Of a DNA stretch of 64,000 nt, positions 8,310-25,799 are shown piece by piece. How positions within the stretch are numbered: position 1 is the first letter of the stretch; every line of letters starts with the position of its first letter. Source of the DNA: Candidatus Helarchaeota archaeon. Its GTDB lineage: Archaea; Asgardarchaeota; Lokiarchaeia; Helarchaeales; RDOG01. Position numbers and translations under genes: made by a program. A model generated the notes under the pieces. That model was not told where the DNA came from. It saw only the letters and a list, made by a program, of their open reading frames with translations, and ran no database searches. The stretch lies in contig JAHPZH010000007.1 of NCBI GenBank assembly GCA_019058315.1, forward strand, positions 160,001 through 224,000, given 5' to 3'.

Positions 8310-8951
8310 TTATTTTATTTGGATTGGGATATAATAAACAATATTATTTTCATTTATTGAATTAATGAAATTGAATTCTAATAATTTTTTGATATGTGGT
8401 CTTATTTGACCATGATCTAAATTTAAAATTCTCTCTAGTTCAGAAAGTCTTAATTTCTTATGGAGTTTAATTTGATGATAAATTAACTTTGTTCTTAAAT
8501 TCTTAAATAATAGTATTTCCATATCAAATTCTTCATTTGTATCAGATAAAAAATAAACTTTTTTATTCATGAATTTCTTACTTCGAAGGAAATCGAACAT
8601 TTCTAAGTATTCAAGATTTCTGAACGTTTCATAAGCACCAAGATTAAGTTCTTCCCTAATCTCCCTTACATGAGTTCCAGGATGTTCCAATATGTAATAA
8701 TATATTCTCCTACGATTTTTATTATTTAATATATTTTTCTTTGTTAAATTAAGACCTTCAATTAAATATTTCTTTTCAAATAGTTGATTTAAAGCAATGT
8801 AAATTTCTTCTTTTGAATAACTCAATTGAGAAACTGCTTCTTCAAATAAATTTTCAGCTCTTATTGCCTTCTTTTTTCCTCCTAAATCTGTCGCAATAAT
8901 TAAAATTAGTCTTTCAATAACCCCAAGCTCTTCTAAAAACAAATTAAACAC
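8310..8951 (-). CDS. Winged-helix (ArsR-like, tandem wHTH) transcriptional regulator
   Basis: NKNRRRIYYYILEHPGTHVREIREELNL and a second HTH LRLSELERILNLDHGQIRPHIKKL. Confidence 0.7.
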   Translation of the reverse strand: MFNLFLEELGVIERLILIIATDLGGKKKAIRAENLFEEAVSQLSYSKEEIYIALNQLFEKKYLIEGLNLTKKNILNNKNRRRIYYYILEHPGTHVREIREELNLGAYETFRNLEYLEMFDFLRSKKFMNKKVYFLSDTNEEFDMEILLFKNLRTKLIYHQIKLHKKLRLSELERILNLDHGQIRPHIKKLLEFNFINSINENNIVYYIPIQIK

Positions 8952-9059
8952 TCGTTTATTGTTATTTAGAATTGGAATTTTCCATTTAAAAAATTTTATG
9001 TAATTGCAATAGTTGAAATCTTATTTTACTAAAATAAAGAGATAAAAAAATAATTAATT

Positions 9060-10730
9060 TTATTTCTCAAGATTTTCTACTTTTCTTAACCATTCATCAA
9101 TTTTTTCAGTTTTGATTGTGACAAGATCTCTTAAAAGTAGTTCTTTTTCTTTTTCTGTTAGATTTTTAATAGCTTTCACTCTTGAATATATATCTGATGA
9201 TAATAATTTAAACGATTTTACCATGATATTTTCTTTATCAACAGAATAAGTGCTTTCATTGTTTCTATTTTCATCAGACTGTTTTAAAATATCTAATATT
9301 TCTTTTGCATTTAAAGTTGATTTGGATTTAGATCCATACATTGTTGTGGGTTCTTGAATTAAAGCCTTTTCTTTAGTTTTTATTATTTTTCTAATTTCTT
9401 TAGCACCTAAATATACTCCCTTAGTAGATTTTTTTTCTATTGACCTTTTAGATTCTGATTTATCCTTATATTTATACACGGCTATTGCTGTGAACGTAAT
9501 CGAGACAGCTGCAATACTACCGATGATTATAATTATAATTATTGTATAATCGTCACCTGGTATCACAATCCATGGAAAAGGACTATCAATTATATTTACG
9601 GTGAATTGATAAAAAGATGAGAATCTGGCATTTCCATCTGTGTCGTTGACGAATATTGAATATGTTATTGTTCTACCCGTGGCATTTGGAGGAATAATAC
9701 TCGTAAAATTCCAATAGCCATCTGTGGTATTCCCCGAAATAAGTGTCATGTCGAAATATTTGAATAAACCGTATAGGTCTGAATAAAGCCCGACATGAGA
9801 AACTCCAATATTATCTTTGATTCGAACTGTAATATATAATTGATCAAAAATCTGAAAATTTTGTTTATTTATCCAAATATCTAGTATTTTTGGTATTTCA
9901 CTTTCAGTTAGATTATAGACAAATTCTACTTGGTTAATGAGGAACTGTTTACATGTAGTAGTCATATAATCATCCCTAAAATAACCCTCATATGACCATA
10001 ATAAAATTCTAATATTATTTTCATACCCTTTATAATGTCCAAAATTCACATGATCACTTTGAATATTCTCTGCATATCCTATAATTTCAAAATCAGCATC
10101 AGAAGTACTAAAGGTCCTACTCGTTCTCATATAAGTAGTATCTATTGCAAATGTTAATGGTAGATTATAGGGATTGTTTAATACAGGATGACTACCTTGA
10201 GAAGATAACATCCTCTGAGCATCACTTCCACTCACCACTATACTTCCATAATTTGAATAAGACAATCCTAAAGCAAATACGAATAAACTTCCGCCCCTAC
10301 CTCTTGCTATTATAGGTTTTCCAATATCTGCTATTCCTTCTGCTTCAGTTGTAGTCCAAGCATGAGGGACGTAACCCTCTTGACAATCACCAATTAGTAA
10401 TACATCGTAAGGATCAGCTAATGACGGATCATTGAGTAACTCTTGATAATGTAATGTGCTAGTTTCATAACTTCCAAAATCTCTTAATATACGTAACCAA
10501 TTCACATCATGATCCATTGAAATATAGGAAGTATTAACAAATAAAATATCTAAATCACTAGCTTTTATCTCTAAGCGTTGATCTTCCTCATCAGTTTTGG
10601 CATACAAATTTGGGAATGAAAGGTTACTCGAATTATATATTGAATAACTGATTATAATTGCGCTGAAAATGAAAATAGCTACCACTATTAAATAAATTCC
10701 TTTATTATATTTATATCCCATTAGATTCAC
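9060..10730 (-). CDS. Membrane-anchored extracellular protein with cytoplasmic C-terminal tail
   Basis: N-terminal hydrophobic helix; beta-rich Ig-like segment (YITVRIKDNIGV...YSIFVNDTDGN) with N-x-S/T sequons; TM IIIIIIIGSIAAVSITFTAIAVY; charged tail. Likely start is ATG near 10721 after SD AGGTGA. Confidence 0.65.
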   Translation of the reverse strand: MNLMGYKYNKGIYLIVVAIFIFSAIIISYSIYNSSNLSFPNLYAKTDEEDQRLEIKASDLDILFVNTSYISMDHDVNWLRILRDFGSYETSTLHYQELLNDPSLADPYDVLLIGDCQEGYVPHAWTTTEAEGIADIGKPIIARGRGGSLFVFALGLSYSNYGSIVVSGSDAQRMLSSQGSHPVLNNPYNLPLTFAIDTTYMRTSRTFSTSDADFEIIGYAENIQSDHVNFGHYKGYENNIRILLWSYEGYFRDDYMTTTCKQFLINQVEFVYNLTESEIPKILDIWINKQNFQIFDQLYITVRIKDNIGVSHVGLYSDLYGLFKYFDMTLISGNTTDGYWNFTSIIPPNATGRTITYSIFVNDTDGNARFSSFYQFTVNIIDSPFPWIVIPGDDYTIIIIIIIGSIAAVSITFTAIAVYKYKDKSESKRSIEKKSTKGVYLGAKEIRKIIKTKEKALIQEPTTMYGSKSKSTLNAKEILDILKQSDENRNNESTYSVDKENIMVKSFKLLSSDIYSRVKAIKNLTEKEKELLLRDLVTIKTEKIDEWLRKVENLEK

Positions 10731-10872
10731 CTATTAATTTAAAGAGATTGGAAATCATCTATCTATAATCCATTCACTATTCCCATATAATAAATGGATA
10801 TGGTCCAGTTTTATCCGAATTATCACAAAAAAAATGATTTGATATTAAAAAAGGCAAATTTTTTTTAAATTT

Positions 10873-11568
10873 TTAAATTACATCATGCGAACGAATTTTA
10901 TCTAATTCAATAAGATTTTTCGATAAATCTTCTCTTATTTTTGATAAATCTTCTTCTCTATCCGCTAAAGCGTTCTTTTTAGTAAGTAATTCGATATTAA
11001 TTTTACTTAAATCCTCTTGAGCGACTTTTAAATTCTTAGTCAACTTCTCGATATTCTTTTCTATTTTTTCTCTTTTTTCAGATGTTTTATCTAATTTTTG
11101 AAATGTATCTTTTTCCTTGGCAAGCTCAAATTCTTTCTTAGAAATCTCATCTCTTAAACTTGATATCTTTTTTTCTATTTTTCCAATTTCTTCTCTATCC
11201 CCAGTTATCGCAATCTCCATTTGGGCCACACTTTTACGAACTTTAGAAATTTCAAGCTCTAATTCCGAAATTTGTTCATTAAGAAGTGCTTCTTGCATAC
11301 TTTCGGTAATTTCGTCTTCTGTAAATTCTATAATTCCTGCATTTTTAATTTCGTTTTTTTCATTAACCTTATTCCGAATTTTTTCGGCTAATTTCTCTCT
11401 TATTTTGGCGGATTCTTCTTCCATCTTTGCCAATTTCTCTTGTTCTTTTGCAATTTTGAGTTGGACTTTAATTAGTTCAAGTCTAGATTCAGCGGCGATA
11501 AGTTCTTGCTTGGCCAAATCTTTGTTTCGTTGTGCTGCTTGCTTAAGTTTCTGAATTTCTTCATCCAT
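10873..11568 (-). CDS. Long coiled-coil protein
   Basis: Continuous E/K/L-rich heptad pattern over 231 aa. Confidence 0.7.
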   Translation of the reverse strand: MDEEIQKLKQAAQRNKDLAKQELIAAESRLELIKVQLKIAKEQEKLAKMEEESAKIREKLAEKIRNKVNEKNEIKNAGIIEFTEDEITESMQEALLNEQISELELEISKVRKSVAQMEIAITGDREEIGKIEKKISSLRDEISKKEFELAKEKDTFQKLDKTSEKREKIEKNIEKLTKNLKVAQEDLSKINIELLTKKNALADREEDLSKIREDLSKNLIELDKIRSHDVI

Positions 11569-11659
11569 TTTGTTGGTTCTTCCTTATAATTTTTTTTGAC
11601 TCTTTGTATTTTTATAATCAAAGATTATTAATTTTTCTAAATAGTTTTTAAATTGGTTA

Positions 11660-12052
11660 TTAGATATTGGAATTATATAAAGTTACTTTGCTTGCCATTA
11701 TTTCTATAAAATCTCCAACTTTTATCAAATCTGTTTTTTTCACATCCAGCATTATTGAACTTGCAGGTGATAAGGATATTACTATTACCCCATCATCATA
11801 AATTTGATCAATTTTACCATGTATTATTAAATTATTGCGTTGGTAATCAATTAAAGGTTTATTTTCTGTAATTTTATTAATATTTTCTCCCCATAGTAAT
11901 TTATCATTTATATTAAATTCAACAAAATATTTAGATCCTACATTTGGTGTTTCTCCATCCCACTTGGCTGCCCCAGAGCCAAATTTGGTTTCAAACCATA
12001 TCAAGATCCTATCTTTACTTCTTTCAATAATACGCTTAACTATTATTTTCAT
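11660..12052 (-). CDS. Hypothetical beta-rich protein
   Basis: 130 aa ORF co-directional with neighbours; no family recognised. Confidence 0.6.
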   Translation of the reverse strand: MKIIVKRIIERSKDRILIWFETKFGSGAAKWDGETPNVGSKYFVEFNINDKLLWGENINKITENKPLIDYQRNNLIIHGKIDQIYDDGVIVISLSPASSIMLDVKKTDLIKVGDFIEIMASKVTLYNSNI

Positions 12053-12080
12053 ATATTTTTCACTATTTTTTCGATTTTAA

Positions 12081-12413
12081 CTAATATAACTCCCTTCTCT
12101 TTTTTTCAAATTTTTTAATAGTATCTACCTTCCGAATAATGTTTGGTCTCCATTGGGTTGCTTTTACAATTGTTCTTAGCATAACACCATTTTTACCAAT
12201 AAGTAGACCTGGTTTTCTGGCTTCAATTATTACTTCACCAAGAGCTTCATCAAACTCAATGCTTGTAATTCCTGCATTTGGTGGGCTTAATTCAATAATC
12301 TTTTTTTCAGCTTGTTCAGGCGGTAATCTATGCTTGAAATCTGAGTATTTATCTATTCTTTTTCTAATTTTTTTAGACATTTCTTTAATTTGTTTTTTAA
12401 AATCCTCTTCCAA
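12081..12413 (-). CDS. Stand-alone KH domain resembling the N-terminal KH region of aCPSF1/FttA
   Basis: IKEMSKKIRKRI...LPPEQAEKKIIEL.PPNAGITSIEFDEALGEVIIEARKPGLLIGKNG..LR.I.K.TQWRP follows the aCPSF1 KH pattern; no MBL/beta-CASP part. Confidence 0.8.
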   Translation of the reverse strand: MEEDFKKQIKEMSKKIRKRIDKYSDFKHRLPPEQAEKKIIELSPPNAGITSIEFDEALGEVIIEARKPGLLIGKNGVMLRTIVKATQWRPNIIRKVDTIKKFEKKRRELY

Positions 12414-12538
12414 TTTTATTTTCCTCGTTATTGTATTTTCATATAAGAATTAGTTAAAATGATAATTAATATCTTCCAAATTAGTAATTCTCTATATTTT
12501 TCTTTATAAAAATATTAATACAAAATAAATTATTACAT

Positions 12539-13072
12539 TTAGACATTTGCTGCATTTAATAAAGAATGGTATAAGAGCTTTGAAATAGAATTCAAATAAA
12601 TTTCAAATTCATCTTTAAATATTTTAAATAAATTTCTATAAGGATGTTCTAATATTTCTGGATTACTTTTAACCCAATTGCATTTTGGATCAAGTACAAA
12701 GTAATATTCTTTTTTTGAAATTTGCTTAAAATTTCTTATTGGAAATATTTTACACATCACAGGTTTATTCTCATGAATAGAACAACCTGAATTCTCACTA
12801 TAAAAAGGGCAAGGGAGGTTTAAAAAGTAATGAAATGTAAATTCTTCTTTGTTTAAAGGATTTACTATTTTTTCTTTGGTAATTTTTAATTTTAAATTAC
12901 GTTTTCTTGCCTCTAACTCTAAAAAGTTCTTCTCATCATTAGTTATTTGTAATTTCTTAAAAAGAGAAACACAACATCTATTTTTACATTGCTTGCATGA
13001 ATATGAATTTGAATTATTATTAATCGAATGTAAATTAATTTCAGTGAAATAAGTCTTGAAATTATTTAAAAT
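12539..13072 (-). CDS. YkgJ-family (CxxCxxxCC) Zn/Fe-S cluster protein
   Basis: The frame of track ORF 12539..12760 is open up to 13075 and encodes SCKQCKNRCC...PCPFYSENSGCSIHENKPVMCKIFP. No ATG/GTG/TTG upstream of the motif; ATT at 13072 or TTA at 13069 follows SD GGAGCTGA. Confidence 0.75.
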   Translation of the reverse strand: MLNNFKTYFTEINLHSINNNSNSYSCKQCKNRCCVSLFKKLQITNDEKNFLELEARKRNLKLKITKEKIVNPLNKEEFTFHYFLNLPCPFYSENSGCSIHENKPVMCKIFPIRNFKQISKKEYYFVLDPKCNWVKSNPEILEHPYRNLFKIFKDEFEIYLNSISKLLYHSLLNAANV

Positions 13073-13168
13073 TGGTCAGCTCCAACCGATGAAATTTTTT
13101 ATAACTATTATTTGATTATTATAATAAAATTGTTTAAAATTTGTGAATTAAAAATTTAAGTGAAATGA

Positions 13169-13507
13169 TTGCATTTATTTGTATACGGGACTTTAACAGA
13201 CGAGGTATTTCTCCACCGCGTAACTAAAAGACCATTCGGACACTTTCAAATTATTGAAGCCAAACTACCCGAATATAAAAGAGATTCATCAATAAAAATA
13301 TCAAAGTGTGACCATGATTCAGCAGTTAATGGCCGATTAATTTTAAATCTAGATAAAAATGATCTAGATCTTCTGGATTATTACGAAAGTTGTAATACTA
13401 ATAATGCTGAGTCAGATCAAAATAATTGGTATAACCGGAAAATAGTCTCTGTAATTACAAGTGATAATAAAACGTTTAATGCATACGTATACATTCCCAA
13501 TTTTTAG
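13169..13507 (+). CDS. Gamma-glutamylcyclotransferase (AIG2-like) family protein
   Basis: LFVYGTL, VNGRLI, LDLLDYYE, YNRKIVSV, AYVY. Confidence 0.88.
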   Translation: MHLFVYGTLTDEVFLHRVTKRPFGHFQIIEAKLPEYKRDSSIKISKCDHDSAVNGRLILNLDKNDLDLLDYYESCNTNNAESDQNNWYNRKIVSVITSDNKTFNAYVYIPNF

Positions 13508-13534
13508 AGTTTATAACATTTTGGTGATTAATTA

Positions 13535-14860
13535 ATGTCCATCTTCAAAAAAAAACCACTTGGCAAATGTCCTCGCTGCGGAAATGTAACACATGCAAGA
13601 TGGATTAAATTAGGTAGAGAAATTAAATGTGAAAATTGCGATTTTAAATTAAGGGTTATTGTAAAAAGAAAACAAAATTTAGAGGATAAAAAGAAGCCTT
13701 TGGGGATTGTTGATACAATAGAAGAAGCTTATGGAATTTCTATGGGTATTGAAATTGAAACTTATACCATTAGAATTTCAGCTGGAAAATATTCGATTGG
13801 ATATGACGATGTAGTATACCCTAAAGAGCAAGTTTTTGAAGATGGAGAAATATTTACCCAAGATCTTACCATTGGTTCTGAATTTAATAGTCCAGTTTTT
13901 TATCAACTTTATAATGCGTATTTTCGCTTGAAAGCCAGTCTAAGAAAATATAATGTATTCCAAGATAAAACTGAAGAAAATGTGGAAAAACGAATCTGTT
14001 TTATGGGAACATGGTTGGATGCGCCGGCGGCAACACACTTTCATATTGGATTTGGTAAAGATGGAATAGGCGAACAAGATGCGGAGTATATTGCGCAGCA
14101 TGTTCATAGTCATTTACCTTTTTTGATAGCATTATCCGCAAATTCACCAATTTTAAATAATGAAATTACTCCAATTGCCTCGAATAGGTTAAAAGAATTT
14201 CCATATTGTAATCCCATTGCTATAAAAGATTTCTTTAAAGAATACGAGAAATTAAGTGATTATCATTTTACAGAAATGAATTATAATACCTTTCCTGGAA
14301 GTGGGGAGGATACTAAACCTCCTACCCTTGAAATTAGAGTAGCTGACTCAAATATTCCCGAATATTGTATTGCTTGTCTTGCAATTATTCAAGCTATCGT
14401 ATTAAAAGCTATTAGAAAGAAAAAAGGTAAACCCGTTAAACCCCCTAACATATGTGATTATGACAATTACATTGAAGCACGAAATAATGCAATTAATGAT
14501 GGATCAAATGCAATATTATGTTGGAACAACAAACCAGCGAAAGTTCCAAAATATATTGATAAATTCTTTTATTTCTATAAAAAAGAATTAGAAGAAATCG
14601 AAATTCCACCTAAAATTTTAGATGTTTTTAAATATTTAAAATCTGGAGTTAATATGGCTGATATGATTCGGGAATCATGTTCTAAAATGAAGGAAAAAAA
14701 TCCAGCTAATTGGGAGAATGAGTTTGCTAAACAATATGTTTCAGCATTAGAACAAAATTTAGAAGGAAATGATCTCGAAAACTTCGCAGGGTATTTAGGT
14801 ATTAAACTTCCAAACATTTCCAAAACGATTTTAGGAGAAACATCATTTTATTCTCCTTAA
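13535..14860 (+). CDS. Carboxylate-amine (glutamate-cysteine ligase, GCS2-like) ligase with N-terminal zinc ribbon
   Basis: CPRC...CENC ribbon; MGIEIE, SEFNSP, THFHIG, LPFLIALSANSP, ASNRL, TLEIRVADS. Confidence 0.82.
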   Translation: MSIFKKKPLGKCPRCGNVTHARWIKLGREIKCENCDFKLRVIVKRKQNLEDKKKPLGIVDTIEEAYGISMGIEIETYTIRISAGKYSIGYDDVVYPKEQVFEDGEIFTQDLTIGSEFNSPVFYQLYNAYFRLKASLRKYNVFQDKTEENVEKRICFMGTWLDAPAATHFHIGFGKDGIGEQDAEYIAQHVHSHLPFLIALSANSPILNNEITPIASNRLKEFPYCNPIAIKDFFKEYEKLSDYHFTEMNYNTFPGSGEDTKPPTLEIRVADSNIPEYCIACLAIIQAIVLKAIRKKKGKPVKPPNICDYDNYIEARNNAINDGSNAILCWNNKPAKVPKYIDKFFYFYKKELEEIEIPPKILDVFKYLKSGVNMADMIRESCSKMKEKNPANWENEFAKQYVSALEQNLEGNDLENFAGYLGIKLPNISKTILGETSFYSP

Positions 14861-14901
14861 ATCATAACATTTTTTCCTCTAATTCTTGTTTTTCGTGTGA
14901 A

Positions 14902-15525
14902 TTATTCTTTTATGAATAAAAACGCCAGAATAAAAATCCATGACTGATAGGCATATATTGAAATCCGTTCAAATAATCCCAATAATTCAATATTATTCAT
15001 CATCAATACCGAAGTTAAGCCACCAAAACTAGCCATAATAATCAGTGTAATTATTGAATATAATCTAAATGATTTCCACTGTTTCTCACTGTAAAGACCT
15101 ATCCCAATCATTGGTATAGCTAGTACTATTAATATAATGTTTAATCCTGTGAGAATTATATGCATTGTTCCAGGGAAAGTTCCGGGCATAGGAATAGCAG
15201 TAAAAGGATCCATTGGAAAAATACTCCCCGATAATGCTGAAAATATTCCCAGAATCATAATGAATATGCCACCTAAGAATATTAATTTACTCTGCTCAAA
15301 TTTATAATATGTAATTACTCCAATTCCAAAAATAACTAACATAATTGCAGAGATAACGAAAAGCGAACTTAATAAGTAAGTATTTTTAGAACCAGCTTGA
15401 GTTAATTCACTCACCGCATTTATAATTGGACTATAGCCTTGTGTAATGATACTACCGATAATATCATTTAATAAAAATACGATGGGACCTAAAATACCAC
15501 CATAAAAGAGAAGTTTTTTATCCAT
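14902..15525 (-). CDS. DUF998-family membrane protein
   Basis: GYSPIINAVSEL, IFPMDP, GTMHIILTG, GLFERISIY; about 6 TM helices. Confidence 0.8.
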   Translation of the reverse strand: MDKKLLFYGGILGPIVFLLNDIIGSIITQGYSPIINAVSELTQAGSKNTYLLSSLFVISAIMLVIFGIGVITYYKFEQSKLIFLGGIFIMILGIFSALSGSIFPMDPFTAIPMPGTFPGTMHIILTGLNIILIVLAIPMIGIGLYSEKQWKSFRLYSIITLIIMASFGGLTSVLMMNNIELLGLFERISIYAYQSWIFILAFLFIKE

Positions 15526-15670
15526 GTCTTTATCATCACCGAATTATTATTGCAAATAATCTCGTTGCTTTATAAAATCAATGTTTTTATATCTTATTAA
15601 AAATATAATTAGATAATTTTATTTATATTTATTGATAATTATTGATAGTACTATTTTTGGTGGAGATATT

Positions 15671-17950
15671 TTGAAAAAAAGTAGCGATCAGACTAAAGAA
15701 ACGATATTAACCATGCTTTCAAACCCACTACGCTCACAAGTTCTGAAATTTCTAAGTCAACAAAGCCCATTATCATTTACGGATATAATGGAAAAATTAA
15801 AAATGGATCCCTCCACAGATGCTGGTAAATTTGGATACCATCTTAGAGCTTTGAAAGATACCCAACTAATCAGTGGTGGATCCGAATCGGGTTATAGGTT
15901 AACCAAAATTGGAGAAAAAGTAGTTGAGTTTTTATGGACTTTAGGTGATTTGATAAAATCAGAAGCTCTTGGAGAAATCCAGGTTAGAACATCAAGATAT
16001 TCAGTTGAAAAATTTGACAGAAATAAGATAGCCCTAGCTCTACAAAAAGAAGCAAATATTCCTAGAGATCTTGCTGAAGATATTTCAAAAGAAGCTGAAG
16101 AACGATTGATTAATTCAAAAATTAAATATTTTACCGCACCCTTGATACGTGAATTTGTTAATTTTATCCTTTTAGAAAGAGGTTTAGAAAATTATCGACA
16201 TGCTCTTACAAGATTGGGTCTTCCACCATATGATGTTAAAGAATTAATAAAATCACAAAAGAGCATTTCAAATCCAACATTTATAAAAAGAATAGCAGGT
16301 GATGCTATTCTGGAACAATATTTATTATTAAATGTTCTGGACCATAAAATAGCCGATGCTCATTTAAGTGGTGATATTTTCATTCCAAATGCTAATTATT
16401 TCATCTTAAGACCAAATTCTGTACAACATGATGCACGAATTTTTTTCAGTGAAGGTCTTCCAAGTATGGGCTCTCTAATTGCAATAAGCCCTCCAAAGAG
16501 CTTTAGAACCGCTTTAGGCATTATAGCAAAAATTTTTAACATTTCAAATAGCGCAAGCGACCAATCCTTTGATCATTTTAATGTATTTTTAGCCCCTTTT
16601 ATAAAAAATTTATCACAAGACGATATAAAGAAAAATATTCGAATTTTTTTGGAAGATATCGGCTATCAATTCGATTCCTCAGGAATAAATATTAATTTAG
16701 AGTTTTTAATACCTTCATATCTTCAAGATAGTCCAGCAGTTGGTCCCGATGGTAAGGTTAATGGTATTTATGGGGATTATTTGGAGGAAACACAATTATT
16801 ATTATCGTTACTATTAGATGTGCTAATAGAAGGAGATATCAAAGGGCGTCCCTTTCTTTTACCAAATCAAATTCTTAAAATTCGTCCTGAGGTATTAGCT
16901 CGTGATGAATATAAACCATTATTAATGAAAGTCCATGAGTTAATTCTAAAATTTGGAACACCTTTTTTAGTGAATGCAACGAAAGATTGGCAAACTAAAA
17001 ACGTTAATTTAACAGGAGGTCTAGATCGACTCGCGGCTACATGGAAAGAAGTAGAAGTAGATACTTTACGGACTGGAAATTTAGATTGGGTCATTATTAA
17101 TCTCCCTAGAATTGCTTATGAATCGGAAAATGACGATGATAAATTTTTTGATTTATTAGATACTAGATTAGATTTATCTTATAATGCTTTAAAGCAAAAA
17201 AAAGAAATAATTGATATAAGAATGAATGAAGATAGACTACTACCTTTCTTATCTGCTTCGGTAAAGGGAGAGCCTTATTTTCGAATTGAAAATGCCTCTT
17301 TTTCTATTAGCTATCTAGGTTTACCCCAAGCAGTTAAAATACATACGAATTCAAAAGTATCTGATCATACAGGTTTTAATTTCGCAAAACGAATATTGGT
17401 ATATTTAAATAAATTTTCAAAGGAATCTAGTGAGAAATCAGGTCTTAGGTTTACAATAAAGCAATCAATTTCAAATGGATGGGCCTTCAAACTGGCGGAA
17501 TTGGATAGAGAGTATAATATCTGGAGAAAACGAAAAATAGATGCTAAGCATCAATTCGACTTTTATACTGCAGAAAATTTATTCTCCTCAACCTCTATTC
17601 CGATGAAAAAAAGAATTCAATTAGAAGGAGAATTTCAACAGTATCTTAAAGGCGGTCATATGTCTTTAATCTCAATTGATAGTCCATCATTTGATAGTAA
17701 AAATCTATTGGAGATTACTCGTGATATTTGTAATTCTTCTATAGGAATATTTGGATACGTTCATAACCTTACTTATTGCTCTTCATGTGGTATTAGTTTA
17801 AACGGAATTCATGAAAAATGCCTTAAATGCAGCTCTGCAGGGACTAATATTAACCATTATAGCCGTCAAGTTGGACCATATAAAATTATTTCTCCACAGA
17901 ATAATATTATTATGAATAATATTAAAAATCGGCAAATTTATTCGGCATAA
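15671..17950 (+). CDS. nrdD: HTH + ATP-cone + class III ribonucleotide reductase (NrdD)-like fusion, catalytically degenerate
   Basis: ArsR-like HTH (LSNPLRSQVLKFL...GKFGYHLRAL); ATP-cone (VRTSRYSVEKFDRNKI...TAPLIREFVN); NrdD motifs ADAHLSGDIFI, LRTGNL, INLPRIA; C-terminal CxxC-CxxC. TTG start at 15671 follows SD GGTGGAGA (track start 15632). Confidence 0.85.
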   Translation: MKKSSDQTKETILTMLSNPLRSQVLKFLSQQSPLSFTDIMEKLKMDPSTDAGKFGYHLRALKDTQLISGGSESGYRLTKIGEKVVEFLWTLGDLIKSEALGEIQVRTSRYSVEKFDRNKIALALQKEANIPRDLAEDISKEAEERLINSKIKYFTAPLIREFVNFILLERGLENYRHALTRLGLPPYDVKELIKSQKSISNPTFIKRIAGDAILEQYLLLNVLDHKIADAHLSGDIFIPNANYFILRPNSVQHDARIFFSEGLPSMGSLIAISPPKSFRTALGIIAKIFNISNSASDQSFDHFNVFLAPFIKNLSQDDIKKNIRIFLEDIGYQFDSSGININLEFLIPSYLQDSPAVGPDGKVNGIYGDYLEETQLLLSLLLDVLIEGDIKGRPFLLPNQILKIRPEVLARDEYKPLLMKVHELILKFGTPFLVNATKDWQTKNVNLTGGLDRLAATWKEVEVDTLRTGNLDWVIINLPRIAYESENDDDKFFDLLDTRLDLSYNALKQKKEIIDIRMNEDRLLPFLSASVKGEPYFRIENASFSISYLGLPQAVKIHTNSKVSDHTGFNFAKRILVYLNKFSKESSEKSGLRFTIKQSISNGWAFKLAELDREYNIWRKRKIDAKHQFDFYTAENLFSSTSIPMKKRIQLEGEFQQYLKGGHMSLISIDSPSFDSKNLLEITRDICNSSIGIFGYVHNLTYCSSCGISLNGIHEKCLKCSSAGTNINHYSRQVGPYKIISPQNNIIMNNIKNRQIYSA

Positions 17951-17978
17951 ATGGTTAAAAAAGGTTCAAGGTTAGGAT

Positions 17979-18320
17979 TTAAGTTAAATCTAATTTAATA
18001 AATTCATATTCTCTGATAAATTTACGTTGTGTAATATAGCTATATGCCTCGATGACCATTTTATTTTCATAAATTCTTCCATCATATTCAACTATACCAC
18101 TAATACTAGTCGTTGTAAATTTTATCCGAATACTACTTAAAATGAAATTACCTTTACCTACTGATTTAACAGAATCTTTAACAAACCATTTTTTCATTGA
18201 TTGAGGAGATGTTTTCGAATAAGCGGTAATTACCGTCCCATCTTCAAAAAATCTAATATAATGACTATAATCCTCCAATTTACTCCTATAAATTCCATCG
18301 AATCTTAACAAATTGCCCAA
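17979..18320 (-). CDS. Hypothetical protein
   Basis: 113 aa beta-rich ORF (LRFDGIYRS...HYIRFFEDGTVI) filling an intergenic gap. Confidence 0.6.
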   Translation of the reverse strand: MGNLLRFDGIYRSKLEDYSHYIRFFEDGTVITAYSKTSPQSMKKWFVKDSVKSVGKGNFILSSIRIKFTTTSISGIVEYDGRIYENKMVIEAYSYITQRKFIREYEFIKLDLT

Positions 18321-18490
18321 CTCTAATTTTAGATTGAACTAAATAAGAGTCAAAATCAATAAAATATTGCATTTCCAAATTTTAAAAAATTTATATTTTA
18401 ATTATTACTTAACGTAAAATAGTAAATGAAGAAATTTGGGGAGTTAAAATGGAAAAATGGTTACTTCAGTTATTTAAAAGGATGATTTAA

Positions 18491-19702
18491 TTGACTTATC
18501 GAAATAGAAGACATAGAATGTATTTAGAATTCGGAGGACCAAAAATTGCCAAAAAATTTGAACTTGCTCAAGTACGTGGAATGGATGAAATTGAAAATGG
18601 AAAAGTTTCAATAATTGGTTCAGATTTAAGAGATTTGGAACAAGGAAAATCGTATCCAATTGGAATTCTTATTGAAATTGCTGGAAAAGAAGTTAAAAAA
18701 GAGTTAGAACCGATTTTTGAGTGTAGAATTAAGGATTTCACAGATAGTATTGGTAATATGTTTTATGTATATCATCGATCAGATATTTGGTTTAGATTCT
18801 CAACATTTGTCTATGAAAGAGGATTCAACTCTCTCAAAGTGTGGGGTGAAATGTTGATTGCTTCTTATCAAAGGGAATACGAAAAAATTATTGAAAAAAT
18901 CCAAATAACTTTTTTTACTGAAGAGAATAAAGTTAATGAATGGCATGAAAAAGCCACTAAGATTTATTGTTCAAGAGATGACCAAGTAAAATCTCTTTCA
19001 GACGAGAGAGTTGATACTTTTTTTGGGTGTGCTTTGTGTAATTATATTGTTCCAAATCATTTTTGTATAATCACACCAGACAGTTGTGGTCTATGCGGTT
19101 CAATAAACTGGATTAATGCAAAAGCAAGTTTTGAGCTGGATCCAAAGGGTCCAATTTTCTTCATCAGAAAGGGACAAAGTATAGATACTATTAGTGGTGA
19201 ATGGAGCGGAATTAATGAGATCATTAAGGCAAGAACCCTGGGTCAAATTGAAAGAATTCATCTTTACACGATTCTAAGCCCATTTAACCATACTAGTTGT
19301 CATTGCTTAGAGGCAGTCGCCTTTTATATACCTGAGGTTGATGGGATAGGAATTTTAAATAGAAATTTTAAAGTGCCCGCTATTAATGGATTGCCATTTT
19401 CAACTATGTCAAGTGTAATTAGGAAAGGAGAACAAAGTTATGGTTTTGTTGGAACAGCAATAGGACAAATGCGCTCCCCAAAATTTTTACAAGCTGACGG
19501 TGGATGGGATAGAATTGTTTGGATAACTAATCATGTAAAAGATCGCATTAAAGATGATATATCGATTGAAATAGTTAATAAAATCGCAACTGAATCGGAT
19601 GTAACTAATTTAATGGAATTAAAAGATTTCCTTATATTAAATAATCATCCCATAGTTAAAAAATGGACAAAAGAAATATATAATTCTAATTTTGAGGAGT
19701 AA
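18491..19702 (+). CDS. cdhC: Divergent acetyl-CoA synthase (ACDS beta subunit) paralog
   Basis: EFGGPK, GCALC...HFCIITPD...LCGSINW, HTSCHCLEAVAFYIPEVDG, NGLPFSTM, SPKFLQADGGW; TTG after SD AGGATGA. Confidence 0.85.
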   Translation: MTYRNRRHRMYLEFGGPKIAKKFELAQVRGMDEIENGKVSIIGSDLRDLEQGKSYPIGILIEIAGKEVKKELEPIFECRIKDFTDSIGNMFYVYHRSDIWFRFSTFVYERGFNSLKVWGEMLIASYQREYEKIIEKIQITFFTEENKVNEWHEKATKIYCSRDDQVKSLSDERVDTFFGCALCNYIVPNHFCIITPDSCGLCGSINWINAKASFELDPKGPIFFIRKGQSIDTISGEWSGINEIIKARTLGQIERIHLYTILSPFNHTSCHCLEAVAFYIPEVDGIGILNRNFKVPAINGLPFSTMSSVIRKGEQSYGFVGTAIGQMRSPKFLQADGGWDRIVWITNHVKDRIKDDISIEIVNKIATESDVTNLMELKDFLILNNHPIVKKWTKEIYNSNFEE

Positions 19703-19770
19703 ATGTTAACGGGATGGTTGTTCATAAGAAACTAGATACTTAAATTCGATAAATTGTTGAATTAATTATT

Positions 19771-20388
19771 GTGATTTTAGATGATGAATTGCTTGTTCCA
19801 CGTAAATTATATATAGATGCCGGAGTTCACTTTGGAACTGCCAAAAAAACTTCAAATATGGAACCATATATTTATAAAACTATTAATACGGGCAAAAACC
19901 AAATTAATCTTATTGATATTCGAAAAACAGCTGCCAGAATTCGAGTAGCAGCAAAGTTTATTTCTAGATACCACCCAAATAAAGTTCTAGTAACTTCAAA
20001 GCGAAGATATAGTCATCAAGCAATAAAAAAATTTTCAGAAATAATTGGTACAAAATATATAAAGGGGGAAATTAAACCGGGAACTTTAACAAATTATTCA
20101 TCTAAGCATTATATTGAAACGGATTTATTAATTATAATTGATCCTAAAAAAGATGTTGATGCGATAAATGAATCTTCTATTTCCAAAATACCAATAATAT
20201 GTCTGTCTAATACAGATAATAACTTCATAAATGTCGATTTGGTGATTCCGGCAAATAATAGAGGAAGAAAAGCATTAGCATTAATTTTTTGGATTTTAAC
20301 AAGGCAAGTTCTTTTGGAAAGTGGTGAAATAAAATTTTTTAGCGAATTTAATTTTCCAATTTCCGACTTCCTTTCCCCCTTACATTAA
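19771..20388 (+). CDS. rps2: 30S ribosomal protein uS2, divergent copy
   Basis: AGVHFGT, RIRVAAKFI, PGTLTN, VDLVIPANNRGRKALALIFWIL. Confidence 0.85.
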   Translation: MILDDELLVPRKLYIDAGVHFGTAKKTSNMEPYIYKTINTGKNQINLIDIRKTAARIRVAAKFISRYHPNKVLVTSKRRYSHQAIKKFSEIIGTKYIKGEIKPGTLTNYSSKHYIETDLLIIIDPKKDVDAINESSISKIPIICLSNTDNNFINVDLVIPANNRGRKALALIFWILTRQVLLESGEIKFFSEFNFPISDFLSPLH

Positions 20389-20472
20389 ATTTTATAAATA
20401 TAGTTCATATTAAGTAGAAAATCTAAATATTTGAATTAAAAAATGATTAAAGGAATATAAAAAAGGGATTTT

Positions 20473-20886
20473 ATGGTCAAGTCAAAGAAAAATCTAGATA
20501 TTTATGGTCTCATCGTAATAGATCGTTCAGAAATGACAATAGCCACATTATCTGGTGGTAAAAAAAATATTATAAAGATAATGAGTGCAGCCAAACCATT
20601 TAAACGATTGGAGCGTTGCGAAATACAGAAAAATTATAGACCCCTTATTGAACAAGCTACACAGGAGTTCTTCATTCGTGCAGGAGAACACATTAACAAT
20701 CAATTTTTAAGTCTACAATTAAAAGGGATAATTATAGGGGGAGGTGGACCAACTAAAAAATATTTCGTAAAAGGTGATTATTTAGATAATCGTTTAAAGG
20801 AAAAAATAATTGCTATAATCGATATTGGTTATTCTGGTGAGCAAGGTATTGACGATTTAATTAAAAAAGCCAAATTAATATTATAA
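20473..20886 (+). CDS. Stand-alone aRF1/eRF1 domain 2 (middle domain) lacking GGQ
   Basis: YGLIVIDRSE.TI, LIEQATQEFFIRAGEH, LKGIIIGGGGPTKKYF.KGDYLD.RL..KII.IIDIGYSGEQG. Confidence 0.8.
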   Translation: MVKSKKNLDIYGLIVIDRSEMTIATLSGGKKNIIKIMSAAKPFKRLERCEIQKNYRPLIEQATQEFFIRAGEHINNQFLSLQLKGIIIGGGGPTKKYFVKGDYLDNRLKEKIIAIIDIGYSGEQGIDDLIKKAKLIL

Positions 20887-21224
20887 AATGGCGATAATTA
20901 TAAATAAAGGAAGTAAATGTAAACTAGTGCGGTACTAGTCTAATAAATTTAAAAATTAATTACATTTTTTATGAGATTTTTTCTTCTATTTATTCTAAAA
21001 TATTTCAATTTCGAAAATTCGCATTTCTTGTATAAATGCTTATTAAATTCCTTAAAAAATTGTGGGGTTTTTATTATTTTTTAAAAATTCACTATTGTTT
21101 TGAATGGAAAAAGAGTTAGATTAATTAAAAAAATATCAATTTAATTAGATAAATTTATCAAAAAAAGTTTAAATAATAGAAAAACCCATTATGATTATCA
21201 AATTCAATTTAATTTTTAAAAGGT

Positions 21225-21395
21225 ATGGGATGTCTTGCGATGAATATTAGAACTTTTCCAAGATATTGGTATCATAGAAAGATTTTGAAAGCTCCAGTCG
21301 AGAAATCAGATGATATGGATCCCAAAATACAAGATATTAATCCCAAAATAGGAAAAGCTGACCCTGGCCCTACTAAAAAATCCAAATTAATCTAA
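21225..21395 (+). CDS. Putative small protein (56 aa; or 51 aa from ATG 21240)
   Basis: MGCLAMNIRTFPRYWYHRKILKAPVEKSDDMDPKIQDINPKIGKADPGPTKKSKLI; less AT-rich than its flanks; below the ORF-track cutoff. Confidence 0.45.
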   Translation: MGCLAMNIRTFPRYWYHRKILKAPVEKSDDMDPKIQDINPKIGKADPGPTKKSKLI

Positions 21396-21603
21396 AAACA
21401 ATTGAAATAATCCAAATTCATATTTAATTATATTTTTTTTAATTAATTATTTGTTATTTTAAATAAACGAATTATACTATTTCTAAAATTTTTATAAATA
21501 CCATAAATAAGAAAAAATTCTATTCTGAAATTTAAATTGAGATTATTTATTCTTTGGACTCAAAAAATTTATTTTATAACTGAATAAATAAAAATAGATT
21601 AAA

Positions 21604-22542
21604 TTGACTAAAACTTCTGAGATTTCATTTAATGATAGGGACATAATTTCAATCAAAGATTTAACTCGCGATGAAATTGAATACATTTTAGACATTGCAC
21701 TTAAAATGAAGAAATATCATGATGACCCTACTGATCTTTTAAAGGGAAAAATTCTCGCAACTCTTTTTTATGAGCCCAGTACTCGAACCCGTTTGAGTTT
21801 TACAAGTGCAATGTTAAAATTAGGAGGGGAAGTAATGGGGTTCAGCGATCCAAAGGCTTCATCTGCTGCAAAAGGTGAAAACTTATCTGATTCTATTCTT
21901 TGTATTGAAAGTTATTGTGATATTATAGTTATTCGTCATAAATTAGAAGGGAGTGCCAGATTAGCAGCTGAAGTTTCTAAAAATCCTATTATTAATGCTG
22001 GAAGTGGGACTCAGGAACATCCTACTCAAGCTTTATTAGATTTATTGACTATCAGGAACGAATTTAAATCATTAGATGGTCTAAAAATTGGAATGGTTGG
22101 GGATCTAAAATATGGTAGAACAGTAAAATCCCTCTCCTATGCACTTTCATTATATGATGTTGAATTATCATTCATCTCTCCTTCCATGTTAAGCATGAGA
22201 AAAGAAGTATTAAAGGATCTTGATGATGCTGGAATAAAATATGAAGAATTTTCTGATTTAAGTTCAGTTCTTCCCTCATTAGATGTGATTTACGCTACCC
22301 GTATACAAAAAGAACGTTTCCCCGATCCTGCGGATTATGAAAAAGTTCGAGGATCTTATAAAATAAACAAAGAGTTTTTAAATAATGCAAAAGATTCAAT
22401 GATTTTAATGCATCCTTTACCCAGAGTCGATGAAATAGCATTTGATGTTGATAAACTCCCTTGTTCTAGATATTTTATTCAACCGCTTAATGGTGTTTTA
22501 ATTAGGATGGCATTACTTGGGTTAGTATTAGGAAAAATATAA
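21604..22542 (+). CDS. pyrB: Aspartate carbamoyltransferase catalytic subunit
   Basis: FYEPSTRTRLSF, HPTQALLD, GDLKYGRTV, RIQKERF, HPLPRVDEI. Confidence 0.97.
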   Translation: MTKTSEISFNDRDIISIKDLTRDEIEYILDIALKMKKYHDDPTDLLKGKILATLFYEPSTRTRLSFTSAMLKLGGEVMGFSDPKASSAAKGENLSDSILCIESYCDIIVIRHKLEGSARLAAEVSKNPIINAGSGTQEHPTQALLDLLTIRNEFKSLDGLKIGMVGDLKYGRTVKSLSYALSLYDVELSFISPSMLSMRKEVLKDLDDAGIKYEEFSDLSSVLPSLDVIYATRIQKERFPDPADYEKVRGSYKINKEFLNNAKDSMILMHPLPRVDEIAFDVDKLPCSRYFIQPLNGVLIRMALLGLVLGKI

Positions 22543-22543
22543 A

Positions 22544-23023
22544 GTGAAAAAAATGGTAGAGAAAGAGCTTAGAGTTAGAAAAATCAAGCAAGGCACAGTT
22601 ATAGATCATATAAGCCCTGGAACTGCGTTAAGGGTTTTATCTATTCTTGGAATTATGGGAAAGGAGGGTCATATACTTTCCATTGCTATAAACGTTCCAA
22701 CGGGTAAAAATCAGAGTAACAGAAAAGATATTGTAAAAATTGAAAATAAAGAATTAGAGATTACCGATATTAATAAAATAGCTTTAATAAGTCCTCATGC
22801 TACAATAAATATAATTAGAGACTACAAAGTCGTTAGCAAAGAAAAAGTAAAACTTCCATCAGAACTTAAAGATATTATTAAATGCATTAATCCTAACTGC
22901 ATCACAAATAGTAGAGAACCGATAAAATCGCATTTTACAGTCGAAAATAAAGAACCAATATTATTAAGATGTAATTATTGTAATATTATTATGGATTTAA
23001 AGGATATTTTAAAAAATATATAA
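22544..23023 (+). CDS. pyrI: Aspartate carbamoyltransferase regulatory subunit
   Basis: GTVIDHI, KDIVKIE, CINPNCIT, LRCNYC. Confidence 0.96.
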   Translation: MKKMVEKELRVRKIKQGTVIDHISPGTALRVLSILGIMGKEGHILSIAINVPTGKNQSNRKDIVKIENKELEITDINKIALISPHATINIIRDYKVVSKEKVKLPSELKDIIKCINPNCITNSREPIKSHFTVENKEPILLRCNYCNIIMDLKDILKNI

Positions 23024-23050
23024 TATTTAAATAAAAGAGGTTGAAAACCT

Positions 23051-24022: not shown

Positions 24023-24053
24023 AAAACTAAATTTTAAAATTTTAATTATTAAA

Positions 24054-25792: not shown

Positions 25793-25799
25793 ATAAAAT

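What the first reader, a model, noticed from the sequence alone, without database searches (positions are those of the whole stretch)
12081..20886. Island of intact but 'disarmed' copies of core machinery
Seen in sequence: within about 9 kb lie five homologs of essential proteins, each outside its usual operon and altered or truncated, yet without frameshifts or internal stops. They are a lone aCPSF1 KH domain, a dead NrdD, an ACS beta with an altered Cys-Gly-Cys, a drifted uS2 and a lone aRF1 middle domain without GGQ. The last three are consecutive and co-directional, with gaps under 90 bp. The two truncations follow domain boundaries. Inference: either a hotspot that captures and recycles housekeeping domains, or a selected set of pseudo-enzyme, decoy or dominant-negative regulators acting on transcription termination, translation, dNTP supply and carbon fixation (for example a dormancy switch or antiviral decoys).
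Basis: inference. Interest (0 to 1): 0.75.

Follow-up and report, generated by a model that had tools for sequence, protein, structure and literature searches.

The report
Insertion hotspot holding diverged housekeeping copies
In one large Asgard archaeal genome, a 13-kb stretch beside the pyrimidine genes has gained several young, fast-evolving but intact copies of essential genes, and these sit around an old, widespread inactive ribonucleotide-reductase homologue that carries a DNA-binding domain and is probably a regulator.

Summary
All five homologues are at the stated coordinates, all are intact, and all have canonical copies elsewhere in the genome. They are not one unit, though.

- **NrdD homologue.** It is ancient, with a winged-helix domain and an ATP-cone, and it lacks the catalytic residues. 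At least 57 clusters (50% identity) of such proteins exist. It lies next to pyrB in 31 of 32 informative relatives, so it is at its native site and is probably a nucleotide-sensing regulator (inferred).
- **Young lineage-specific copies.** ACS-beta' occurs in 4 genomes, uS2' in 2 (next to ACS-beta' both times), and the aRF1 middle domain and the aCPSF1 KH domain only here. Comparison with close relatives shows gene-sized insertions into short spacers. A sister genome carries a lone CDC48 N-domain near the same site.
- **Selection.** ACS-beta' and uS2' are under purifying selection (dN/dS 0.18-0.35). Neutral drift would rarely leave any of the four reading frames open.
- **aRF1-M'.** The scaffold is kept, but the GGQ loop is specifically changed.
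- **ACS-beta'.** It keeps all metal-binding cysteines, so it is remodelled and not shown to be dead.

I found no mobile-element, viral or defence signature, and no expression data. The hotspot reading is supported. A coordinated decoy system is not.

The parts
8310..10730 (-). Two genes (213 aa and 556 aa). They are shortened copies of a two-gene module (HTH_HVO_0163 protein plus DUF7743 protein) that occurs three more times in this genome. This is a G000-specific insertion between the ACD gene and the 231-aa gene.
   Evidence: In L197 and L199 the ACD gene and the 231-aa gene are about 85-105 bp apart.
10873..12052 (-). Backbone genes: a 231-aa coiled-coil protein and orf130. Both are conserved in close relatives. 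The 231-aa gene also lies beside the NrdD homologue in G001.
12081..12413 (-). KH': a lone KH domain, 58% identical to residues 46-136 of this genome's own aCPSF1, with the GxxG loop kept. It lies in about 437 bp of extra DNA in what is a 49-bp spacer in two close relatives.
   Evidence: dN/dS against the parent gene is 0.64 with dS 0.52.
12539..13072 (-). CxxCxxCC-domain gene of the backbone, 84% identical to the relatives' copy. It has no ATG, GTG or TTG start at the conserved N-terminus, so the ORF lister showed only 73 aa.
13169..14860 (+). GGACT-like gene and GCS2-like carboxylate-amine ligase gene. This backbone pair is conserved in close relatives and neither is a copy of core machinery.
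14902..15525 (-). DUF998 membrane protein. This is a G000-specific insertion: 752 bp here against 55 bp in L197 and L198.
15632..17950 (+). Winged-helix + ATP-cone + NrdD-like protein lacking both catalytic cysteine sites and the glycyl-radical motif. It belongs to an old, widespread family and sits at its native site beside pyrB.
17979..18320 (-). orf113, a small eight-stranded beta-barrel of the FBO_C type, divergent from ACS-beta'. In one relative (L083) the same domain is fused to the N-terminus of ACS-beta'.
18491..19702 (+). ACS-beta': the CdhC core (A2-A3 domains). All six cluster cysteines are kept. The site is remodelled (Cys-His-Cys, Phe to Ile, an extra Cys) and the terminal tethering regions are absent. 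It lies outside the cdh operon.
   Evidence: PMC13370988.
19771..20388 (+). uS2': a full-length diverged uS2 paralogue, 55% identical to the canonical copy. It lies downstream of ACS-beta' here and in L082.
20473..20886 (+). aRF1-M': a lone aRF1 middle domain. The fold is kept and the GGQ loop is replaced. It is a young in-paralogue found only in this genome.
21391..21445 (.). Second variable slot, empty here (55 bp). The sister genome (L081) has 2.76 kb at this point, with a lone CDC48 N-domain gene and two membrane/zinc-ribbon genes.
21604..23023 (+). pyrB and pyrI. pyrB is the conserved neighbour of the NrdD homologue across the class.

Best explanation
The 'island' is composite. Its backbone is ordinary chromosome of an Asgard archaeon. 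Source labels on the closest proteins read Helarchaeota or Promethearchaeota.

One of the five genes, the NrdD homologue, is an old family member at its native site next to pyrBI. It has a winged-helix domain, an ATP-cone and a catalytically dead NrdD body. It most likely acts as a nucleotide-sensing DNA-binding regulator of nucleotide metabolism, built from a whole enzyme (inferred; nothing was tested biochemically).

Around it lies a local hotspot. In this lineage, whose genome has grown to 5.8 Mb, gene-sized pieces have repeatedly been inserted into short intergenic spacers. Several of these pieces are duplicates of the organism's own essential genes: ACS-beta', uS2', aRF1-M' and KH'. After duplication they evolved about 4 to 17 times faster than their parents, yet stayed open and, where it could be measured, under purifying selection. 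They are therefore retained accessory proteins, not wreckage.

Each seems to have its own history and probably its own role:
- ACS-beta' is a detached nickel-iron-sulfur enzyme core with a consistently remodelled site, paired with a small beta-barrel protein.
- uS2' travels with ACS-beta'.
- aRF1-M' keeps its scaffold but has lost the peptide-release loop, as expected for a binding-only competitor or adaptor (inferred).
- KH' is a very recent RNA-binding fragment dropped into an operon-like array.
For: Ages and spread:
- The NrdD homologue has orthologues in 40 of 40 relatives searched.
- All 15 orthologues examined lack the catalytic motifs.
- Among 100 single-module representatives, 57 carry the winged helix and none of these has the full catalytic set; 17 without it do.
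- It lies next to pyrB in 31 of 32 relatives whose contigs can show this.
- ACS-beta', uS2', aRF1-M' and KH' were not found in the 40 relatives. Each is closest to G000's own canonical copy.

Trees:
- aRF1-M' is sister to its own aRF1 (support 89/83), with branch length 0.50 against 0.029.
- uS2' and ACS-beta' fall within the order clade on long branches, 1.11 against 0.26 and 0.97 against 0.14.

Selection:
- dN/dS is 0.23-0.35 for ACS-beta' and 0.18 for uS2'.
- The chance of the frame staying open under neutral drift is <2e-4, <=0.002, 0.003-0.017 and 0.016-0.076 for ACS-beta', uS2', aRF1-M' and KH'.
- aRF1-M' is 5/20 identical to its parent in the GGQ loop and 82/109 elsewhere (p=3e-5). Its fold is predicted with confidence (pLDDT 84).
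- ACS-beta' members share 34 signature changes and keep all six cysteines.

Insertions:
- Borders were mapped against close relatives.
- A sister genome has different cargo at the site.
- The flanks are collinear.

Background: 3114 of 4960 ORFs in this genome have a paralogue, and 84 are shortened copies. Gene duplication is reported as the main driver of large Asgard genomes (PMC13247210).
Against: - There is no expression evidence of any kind.
- aRF1-M' and KH' are known from a single genome. Selection on them rests only on comparison with the parent gene and a drift simulation. KH' has dN/dS 0.64, which I did not test against 1, and the chance of its frame staying open under drift is up to 0.08.
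- The hotspot claim rests on three or four fragmentary relatives. The contrast is five G000-specific segments in 13.4 kb against none in about 13 kb of flanks.
- Genome-wide, runs of dispersed paralogues are not rare (P=0.14).
- The mechanism of insertion is unknown. No repeats, tRNA or integrase were found.
- The regulator role of the NrdD homologue rests on domain make-up and gene neighbourhood alone. In most relatives it is convergent with pyrB, not co-transcribed.
Confidence: 0.6

Rival explanations
1. The genes form one selected system. Catalytically disarmed copies of termination, translation, dNTP and carbon-fixation proteins would act together as dominant-negative regulators or decoys, for example as a dormancy switch or antiviral bait.
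For: - aRF1-M' shows a targeted loss of the GGQ loop with the scaffold kept.
- ACS-beta' and uS2' are adjacent in both genomes that have uS2'.
- Three genomes each have a different lone domain of a core machine within a few genes of ACS-beta': aRF1-M and KH here, CDC48-N in L081, and KOW in L082.
- The copies are under purifying selection.
Against: - The members have very different ages and ranges.
- Only one pair recurs.
- The NrdD homologue is explained independently by its class-wide link to pyrB.
- ACS-beta' keeps its metal ligands.
- There are no matches to defence or phage families beyond a generic winged helix.
Confidence: 0.12
2. The young copies are cargo of a mobile element or virus that picks up host gene fragments and integrates near pyrB.
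For: - The ACS-beta'/uS2' pair sits in a different place in L082, beside SMC, which lies on another contig in G000.
- Its synonymous divergence between G000 and L082 (0.17-0.23) is lower than that of SMC (0.59).
- The cargo at the site differs between close relatives.
Against: - No integrase, transposase, tRNA, flanking repeats or RNA family was found.
- Only the NrdD body matches phage protein families; orf113 has a borderline hit to a family of unknown function (E=0.00095), and the young copies have none.
- GC and GC3 are typical of the genome.
- The insertions are separate single-gene events in several spacers, not one bounded block.
- The low-dS signal rests on a single control gene.
Confidence: 0.1
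3. The copies are neutral leftovers of duplication on their way to decay, or artefacts of assembly or binning.
For: - KH' has dN/dS 0.64 on only 91 codons.
- aRF1-M' and KH' are singletons.
- The genome is a metagenome assembly with 6.6% estimated contamination.
Against: - Open frames are very unlikely under drift for ACS-beta', uS2' and aRF1-M'.
- dN/dS between orthologues is 0.18-0.35.
- The window lies in a 275-kb contig.
- Independent assemblies carry ACS-beta' with the same flanks, and the ACS-beta'/uS2' pair.
- Short contigs from runs of another study match most of the stretch at about 95-98% identity.
- Duplicated marker genes such as uS2' would themselves inflate the contamination estimate (inference).
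Confidence: 0.06

Closest known systems
NrdR (zinc-ribbon + ATP-cone repressor of ribonucleotide reductase genes in bacteria)
   Same: It combines a DNA-binding domain with an ATP-cone, the module that senses ATP/dATP in ribonucleotide reductases. It also lies next to nucleotide-metabolism genes.
   Different: Here the DNA-binding part is an ArsR-type winged helix (DUF7347/HTH_5), not a zinc ribbon. The ATP-cone is still attached to a complete but catalytically dead NrdD body of about 550 residues. The conserved neighbour is pyrB, not nrd genes. Function is untested. I found no description in the papers I could search.
Class III anaerobic ribonucleotide reductase NrdD
   Same: The whole-length fold matches (Pfam NRDD 270 bits), with an ATP-cone and, in this copy, the C-terminal zinc-ribbon cysteines.
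   Different: It lacks both catalytic cysteine sites and the glycyl-radical motif, scores below the curated cut-off, and has an extra N-terminal winged helix.
Archaeal CdhC, the acetyl-CoA synthase subunit of the ACDS complex
   Same: It scores above the curated cut-off (428.6 against 356). The A2-A3 core and all six cluster-binding cysteines are kept.
   Different: It has Cys-His/Asn-Cys instead of Cys-Gly-Cys, and the Phe next to the proximal nickel site is Ile. There are 34 family-wide signature changes. It lacks the disordered C-terminal extension proposed to tether ACS in the supercomplex (PMC13370988). It is not in a cdh operon and is paired with, or fused to, a small beta-barrel.
Pelota/Dom34, the natural eRF1 paralogue without GGQ
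   Same: It is an eRF1-family protein that has lost the GGQ peptide-release motif while keeping the central-domain fold.
   Different: Pelota is an ancient three-domain protein. This genome has its own pelota-like paralogue at window 57298-58380 (no family model was run on it). aRF1-M' is a young single-domain copy of aRF1 itself, 67% identical, and no other stand-alone copy of 75-240 aa was found among 5.8 billion proteins.
Alternative ribosomal-protein paralogues (for example the zinc-independent paralogues of bacteria)
   Same: It is a second, diverged, full-length copy of a ribosomal protein encoded away from the ribosomal genes and kept under purifying selection.
   Different: There is no known trigger or regulatory motif. 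It is found in only two closely related genomes, always downstream of ACS-beta'. Incorporation into ribosomes is untested.

Membership tests
aRF1/eRF1 release factor (TIGR03676) | Three domains (N, M, C) scoring above the curated cut-off | tested here: not met
   Only profile positions 131-261 of 403 are matched; 122.9 bits against a cut-off of 234.7.
aRF1/eRF1 release factor (TIGR03676) | GGQ motif in the middle domain | tested here: not met
   GGQSQ is invariant in 8 canonical sequences and reads CEIQ-type here. Eight of the 9 lost invariant columns lie in this loop.
Ribosomal protein uS2, archaeal/eukaryotic type (TIGR01012) | Full-length match above the curated cut-off | tested here: met
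   216.6 bits against a cut-off of 211.5; the canonical copy scores 268. 42 of 56 invariant columns are kept.
Ribosomal protein uS2, archaeal/eukaryotic type (TIGR01012) | Assembles into the small ribosomal subunit | not testable with these tools
   This needs ribosome purification or proteomics.
CdhC / acetyl-CoA synthase beta subunit (TIGR00316) | Match above the curated cut-off, with the cysteines that hold the [4Fe-4S] and Ni-Ni cluster | tested here: met
   428.6 bits against 355.95. All six cysteines are retained in all four family members.
CdhC / acetyl-CoA synthase beta subunit (TIGR00316) | Cys-Gly-Cys motif and the conserved CQSFAPTHVC segment around the proximal nickel | tested here: not met
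   Cys-His-Cys (Cys-Asn-Cys in L083), and CN[YNH]IV..HFC in place of the conserved segment.
CdhC / acetyl-CoA synthase beta subunit (TIGR00316) | Encoded with cdhA/B/D/E and carrying the terminal tethering extension | tested here: not met
   The canonical copy lies in a cdhA-B-C-D-E cluster. This copy lies between orf113 and uS2' and ends about 70 residues earlier (PMC13370988).
Class III ribonucleotide reductase NrdD (TIGR02487) | Two catalytic cysteine sites, the C-terminal glycyl-radical motif, and a score above the cut-off | tested here: not met
   281 bits against 326. RPFCQE reads RPNSVQ, CCRL is absent, and SRITGYY reads SRQVGPY. The same losses occur in all 15 orthologues examined.
NrdR-like ATP-cone transcription regulators | A DNA-binding domain joined to an ATP-cone | tested here: met
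   DUF7347/HTH_5 at residues 25-100 and ATP-cone at residues 116-188. It is not homologous to the NrdR zinc ribbon, so this is a resemblance in how it may work, not membership.
NrdR-like ATP-cone transcription regulators | Nucleotide-dependent binding to operator DNA | not testable with these tools
   This needs binding assays. Only the conserved adjacency to pyrB is shown.
aCPSF1/FttA termination nuclease (TIGR03675) | Metallo-beta-lactamase and beta-CASP nuclease domains after the KH domains | tested here: not met
   Only profile positions 43-133 of 631 are present; 79 bits against a cut-off of 580.
Integrative mobile element or provirus | Integrase or transposase, tRNA or att target, flanking repeats, viral hallmark proteins | tested here: not met
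   None was found in the stretch or its flanks.
Known anti-phage defence systems (PADLOC) | A match of any component to a defence-system model | tested here: not met
   There were only weak generic matches: a winged helix to Csa3 and a coiled coil to SMC-like models.

The most novel reading that the evidence does not exclude
This site would be a nursery where an Asgard archaeon makes and keeps single-domain, catalytically silenced copies of its own essential machines (aRF1-M, aCPSF1-KH, CDC48-N, Spt5-KOW, uS2). These copies would act as dominant-negative competitors or adaptors on translation termination, transcription termination and protein unfolding. The ACS-beta'/uS2' pair would be a movable core of the locus. 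This would be regulation by paralogous pseudo-factors of the kind usually thought of as eukaryotic.
Probability: 0.12. Interest if true: 0.85.

Novelty: new variant of a known kind. Interest (0 to 1): 0.5.

Why it matters
Asgard archaea are the closest known relatives of eukaryotes, and their large genomes are thought to have grown mainly by gene duplication. This locus shows that process at single-gene resolution. Small insertions into spacers include domain-precise copies of essential, normally single-copy information-processing genes, and these copies are then kept under selection.

If aRF1-M' and uS2' act on ribosomes, they would be rare archaeal examples of regulation by paralogous pseudo-factors.

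Separately, the winged-helix/ATP-cone/dead-NrdD family next to pyrB is broad and robust, and I could not find it described. It gives a directly testable candidate for how these archaea sense nucleotide pools.

ACS-beta' offers a natural variant of the nickel site of acetyl-CoA synthase.

Tried and rejected
- **Complex prediction of orf113 with ACS-beta'.** No verdict (score 0.00), so it counts neither way.
- **Sequencing runs.** No RNA holder is listed, so expression could not be examined.
- **Contigs laid on the stretch.** Pieces from runs of another study match most of it at about 95-98% identity. They are short, and the gaps say nothing. A loose end inside aRF1-M' (20638) and one at 12596 could not be interpreted.
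- **The search for related loci.** With uS2' in species genomes and with ACS-beta' in metagenomes it returned only bacterial S2 genes or canonical ACS at about 50% identity. No further members of the young families turned up.
- **Foldseek of orf113 against solved structures.** Only weak avidin/lipocalin-type barrels came up (TM about 0.5). The Atlas search gave the clearer FBO_C-type match.
- **KH tree.** It was unresolved, and poorly aligned tail columns were included. I draw from it only that KH' falls within the order clade.
- **Repeats, tRNA and Rfam scans.** Nothing beyond AT-rich noise.
- **PADLOC and PHROGs.** No support for defence or viral origin.
- **Literature searches.** No description of the dead-NrdD regulator family, stand-alone aRF1 middle domains or uS2 paralogues in Asgard archaea. 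The library is incomplete, so this is not proof of novelty.
- **My first idea about the KH'-to-DUF998 stretch.** I took the whole stretch to be one insertion, judging from G001. I dropped this when closer relatives showed that orf130, CxxCxxCC, GGACT and GCS2 belong to the backbone.
- **The 73-aa ORF at 12539-12760.** I first read it as a gene remnant. It is the end of an intact CxxCxxCC gene with an unusual start.

Full report
**What is there**

The window is G000:C7:160001-224000 of a 5.79-Mb, 12-contig, ~30% GC assembly. Sources label the closest proteins Helarchaeota, Promethearchaeota or Hodarchaeota, so this is an Asgard archaeon.

- A 110-aa protein matching only the KH region of aCPSF1.
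- A 772-aa NrdD homologue that also has an N-terminal winged helix (DUF7347/HTH_5) and an ATP-cone.
- A 403-aa CdhC homologue.
- A 205-aa uS2.
- A 137-aa protein that is exactly the eRF1 middle domain.

Between them lie a GGACT-like gene, a GCS2-like ligase, a DUF998 membrane protein and two small unknown ORFs.

Canonical copies of all five exist elsewhere in the genome. The canonical CdhC lies in a cdhA-B-C-D-E cluster.

**How far each copy is altered**

- **NrdD homologue.** It lacks both catalytic cysteine sites and has SRQVGPY in place of the glycyl-radical motif SRITGYY. Two other NrdD genes in the genome keep all of these.
- **ACS-beta'.** It has Cys-His-Cys for Cys-Gly-Cys but keeps all six cluster cysteines. 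It lacks the N-terminal segment and about 70 C-terminal residues. A 2026 preprint proposes that these disordered ends tether ACS in the archaeal supercomplex (PMC13370988).
- **aRF1-M'.** It is 67% identical to its parent. In the 20-residue GGQ loop only 5 residues match, against 82 of 109 elsewhere (p=3e-5). Eight of the nine lost invariant columns lie in that loop. The domain is still predicted to fold well (pLDDT 84, with only the former GGQ loop uncertain).
- **uS2'.** It is full-length, 55% identical to the canonical copy, keeps 42 of 56 invariant columns and only just passes the curated cut-off.
- **KH'.** It keeps the GxxG loop.

**The NrdD homologue is a different kind of thing**

Orthologues occur in all 40 relatives searched. 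All 15 orthologues I aligned (the four from the same order included) lack the catalytic motifs.

In a library of 1.84 billion cluster representatives, I examined the 100 top-scoring hits of single-module length. Of these, 57 carry the winged helix, and none of those has the full catalytic set. Seventeen without the winged helix do have it.

Its gene lies next to pyrB in 31 of 32 relatives whose contigs can show this. The exception is G038. These relatives are kin, so they are not independent counts. The gene is therefore old, widespread and at its native site.

The domain make-up recalls NrdR: a DNA-binding domain plus an ATP-cone, here still attached to a whole dead enzyme. I infer a nucleotide-sensing regulator. 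This is untested, and I found no description of it in the papers I could search.

**The other four copies are young and lineage-specific**

None was found in the 40 relatives, and each is most similar to G000's own canonical gene.

- aRF1-M' is sister to its own aRF1, with a 17-fold longer branch.
- uS2' and ACS-beta' fall within the order clade, on branches 4 to 7 times longer than the canonical ones.

In a 5.8-billion-protein collection:
- No other stand-alone aRF1 middle domain of 75-240 aa was found.
- uS2' has one relative, at 92% identity.
- ACS-beta' has three relatives, at 88, 79 and 64% identity.

Their contigs are informative:
- **L082** carries ACS-beta' followed by uS2', then a KOW-only ORF whose best match in G000 is Spt5 (33% identity over 82 residues), a TPR gene and SMC.
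- **L081** carries ACS-beta' followed by a HEAT-repeat gene, a lone CDC48 N-domain gene (54% identical to G000's CDC48 over its N-terminal domains) and two membrane/zinc-ribbon genes. After these comes pyrBI-epimerase-RING-TPR-HEAT, as in the window.
- **L083** has the orf113 domain fused to the N-terminus of ACS-beta', with Cys-Asn-Cys.

**Selection**

Between orthologues, dN/dS is 0.23-0.35 for ACS-beta' and 0.18 for uS2'. Neighbouring housekeeping genes give 0.02-0.11.

I simulated neutral drift from the parent gene to the observed divergence. The frame stays open in <2e-4 (ACS-beta'), <=0.002 (uS2'), 0.003-0.017 (aRF1-M') and 0.016-0.076 (KH') of trials.

The four ACS-beta' members share 34 changes at positions that are nearly invariant in canonical CdhC. 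These include the segment around the proximal nickel (CQSFAPTHVC becomes CN[YNH]IV..HFC) and an added cysteine. That looks like a consistent remodelling of the site, not decay.

KH' is the weakest case: dN/dS is 0.64 and dS 0.52 on 91 codons.

**Insertion borders**

Two further close relatives give the left backbone. They are L197, and L199 from the same assembly as L081. The order is ACD, 231-aa gene, orf130, CxxCxxCC gene, GGACT, GCS2, NrdD homologue. Against this backbone G000 differs as follows:
- Two extra genes at 8225-10872.
- About 437 bp holding KH' inside what is a 49-bp spacer in the relatives (12053-12538).
- DUF998 (752 bp against 55 bp).
- uS2' plus aRF1-M' (19675-21121), where L081 has a HEAT gene.
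- Only 55 bp (21391-21445) where L081 has 2.76 kb that includes CDC48-N'.

About 13 kb of flanks (1377-8224 and 21446-27812) are collinear without insertions. In G002, the NrdD homologue and pyrB are 757 bp apart. The stretch is therefore a local hotspot of gene-sized insertions into spacers.

I found no tRNA, RNA family, meaningful repeat, integrase, phage or defence match. Base composition is typical of the genome.

**Genome-wide background**

3114 of 4960 ORFs have a paralogue, 84 are shortened copies and 157 are low-copy dispersed paralogues. A run of three such genes is not rare by permutation (P=0.14).

Most of the other runs are segmental duplications, and the two mosaic regions I annotated hold mainly metabolic genes. 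Ten sampled parents of other shortened copies include none that is an information-processing gene; seven carry metabolic, signalling or repeat domains and three have no Pfam match. At least one more lone domain of an informational protein exists elsewhere: an 88-aa Spt5 NGN-only ORF at C5:41377-41643.

This fits the published view that duplication drives Asgard genome growth (PMC13247210).

**Verdict**

The idea of one coordinated decoy system is not.

A hint of mobility for the ACS-beta'/uS2' pair comes from its different location in L082 and its lower synonymous divergence than SMC. It rests on one control gene.

No expression data could be found. The one complex prediction gave no verdict.

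Noticed in passing
G000:C5:642230-643585 (locus L005): A third, much more diverged CdhC paralogue (35% identity, 451 aa). It has Cys-Arg-Tyr in place of Cys-Gly-Cys, so one nickel ligand is lost. It lies next to a glycine-cleavage H protein, a MobA-like nucleotidyltransferase and a TtuA-like gene, not cdh genes.
   Followed up: partly
window 17979-18320 (-); L083:31-354: orf113 is predicted as an eight-stranded beta-barrel. Its nearest shapes are the C-terminal domain of eukaryotic F-box proteins Hrt3/FBXO9 (FBO_C; TM 0.76-0.79), and there is a weak Pfam hit to the same family. In one metagenomic relative it is fused to the N-terminus of ACS-beta'.
   Followed up: partly
window 12539-13072 (-): An intact CxxCxxCC-domain gene, 84% identical to the copy in close relatives. 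It has no ATG, GTG or TTG at its conserved N-terminus, so it probably uses another start codon. The ORF lister showed only its last 73 codons.
   Followed up: partly
window 8310-10730 (-): Shortened copies of both genes of a two-gene module (HTH_HVO_0163 protein of about 700 aa plus DUF7743 protein of 900-1800 aa). The module occurs three more times in the genome (C3:603-614 kb, C5:562-570 kb).
   Followed up: partly
L082:1740-2216 (-): Next to uS2' in a close relative lies a 158-aa ORF with only a KOW motif. Its best match in G000 is Spt5 (33% over 82 residues). This may be another lone domain of a core factor beside the ACS-beta'/uS2' pair.
   Followed up: partly
G000:C5:41377-41643 (+): An 88-aa ORF that is 44% identical to the NGN domain of this genome's Spt5 (residues 6-86 of 212). 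It is a lone-domain copy of an informational protein outside the window.
   Followed up: no
window 18712-20372 against L082:53-1723: Synonymous divergence of ACS-beta' (0.17) and uS2' (0.23) between G000 and the L082 genome is well below that of SMC (0.59), although SMC is 98% identical in protein. This could mean recent exchange of the pair, but only one control gene was available.
   Followed up: partly
window 24054-24992 (+): A protein with a PCI domain followed by a RING-H2 finger. Next to it are TPR and long HEAT-repeat proteins. These are eukaryote-like domain combinations typical of Asgard archaea.
   Followed up: no
G000:C6:232462-233748: An aconitase-family large subunit paralogue is split into two adjacent ORFs (125 and 246 aa), relative to a 416-aa copy at C5:765476-766726. 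It lies in a region with several dispersed metabolic paralogues.
   Followed up: no
G001:C53 (L069:17-2930): In the same-family relative, the space downstream of the NrdD homologue holds other lineage-specific genes: a 439-aa membrane protein and a leucine-rich-repeat protein with a zinc ribbon. The site is therefore variable at family level too.
   Followed up: partly
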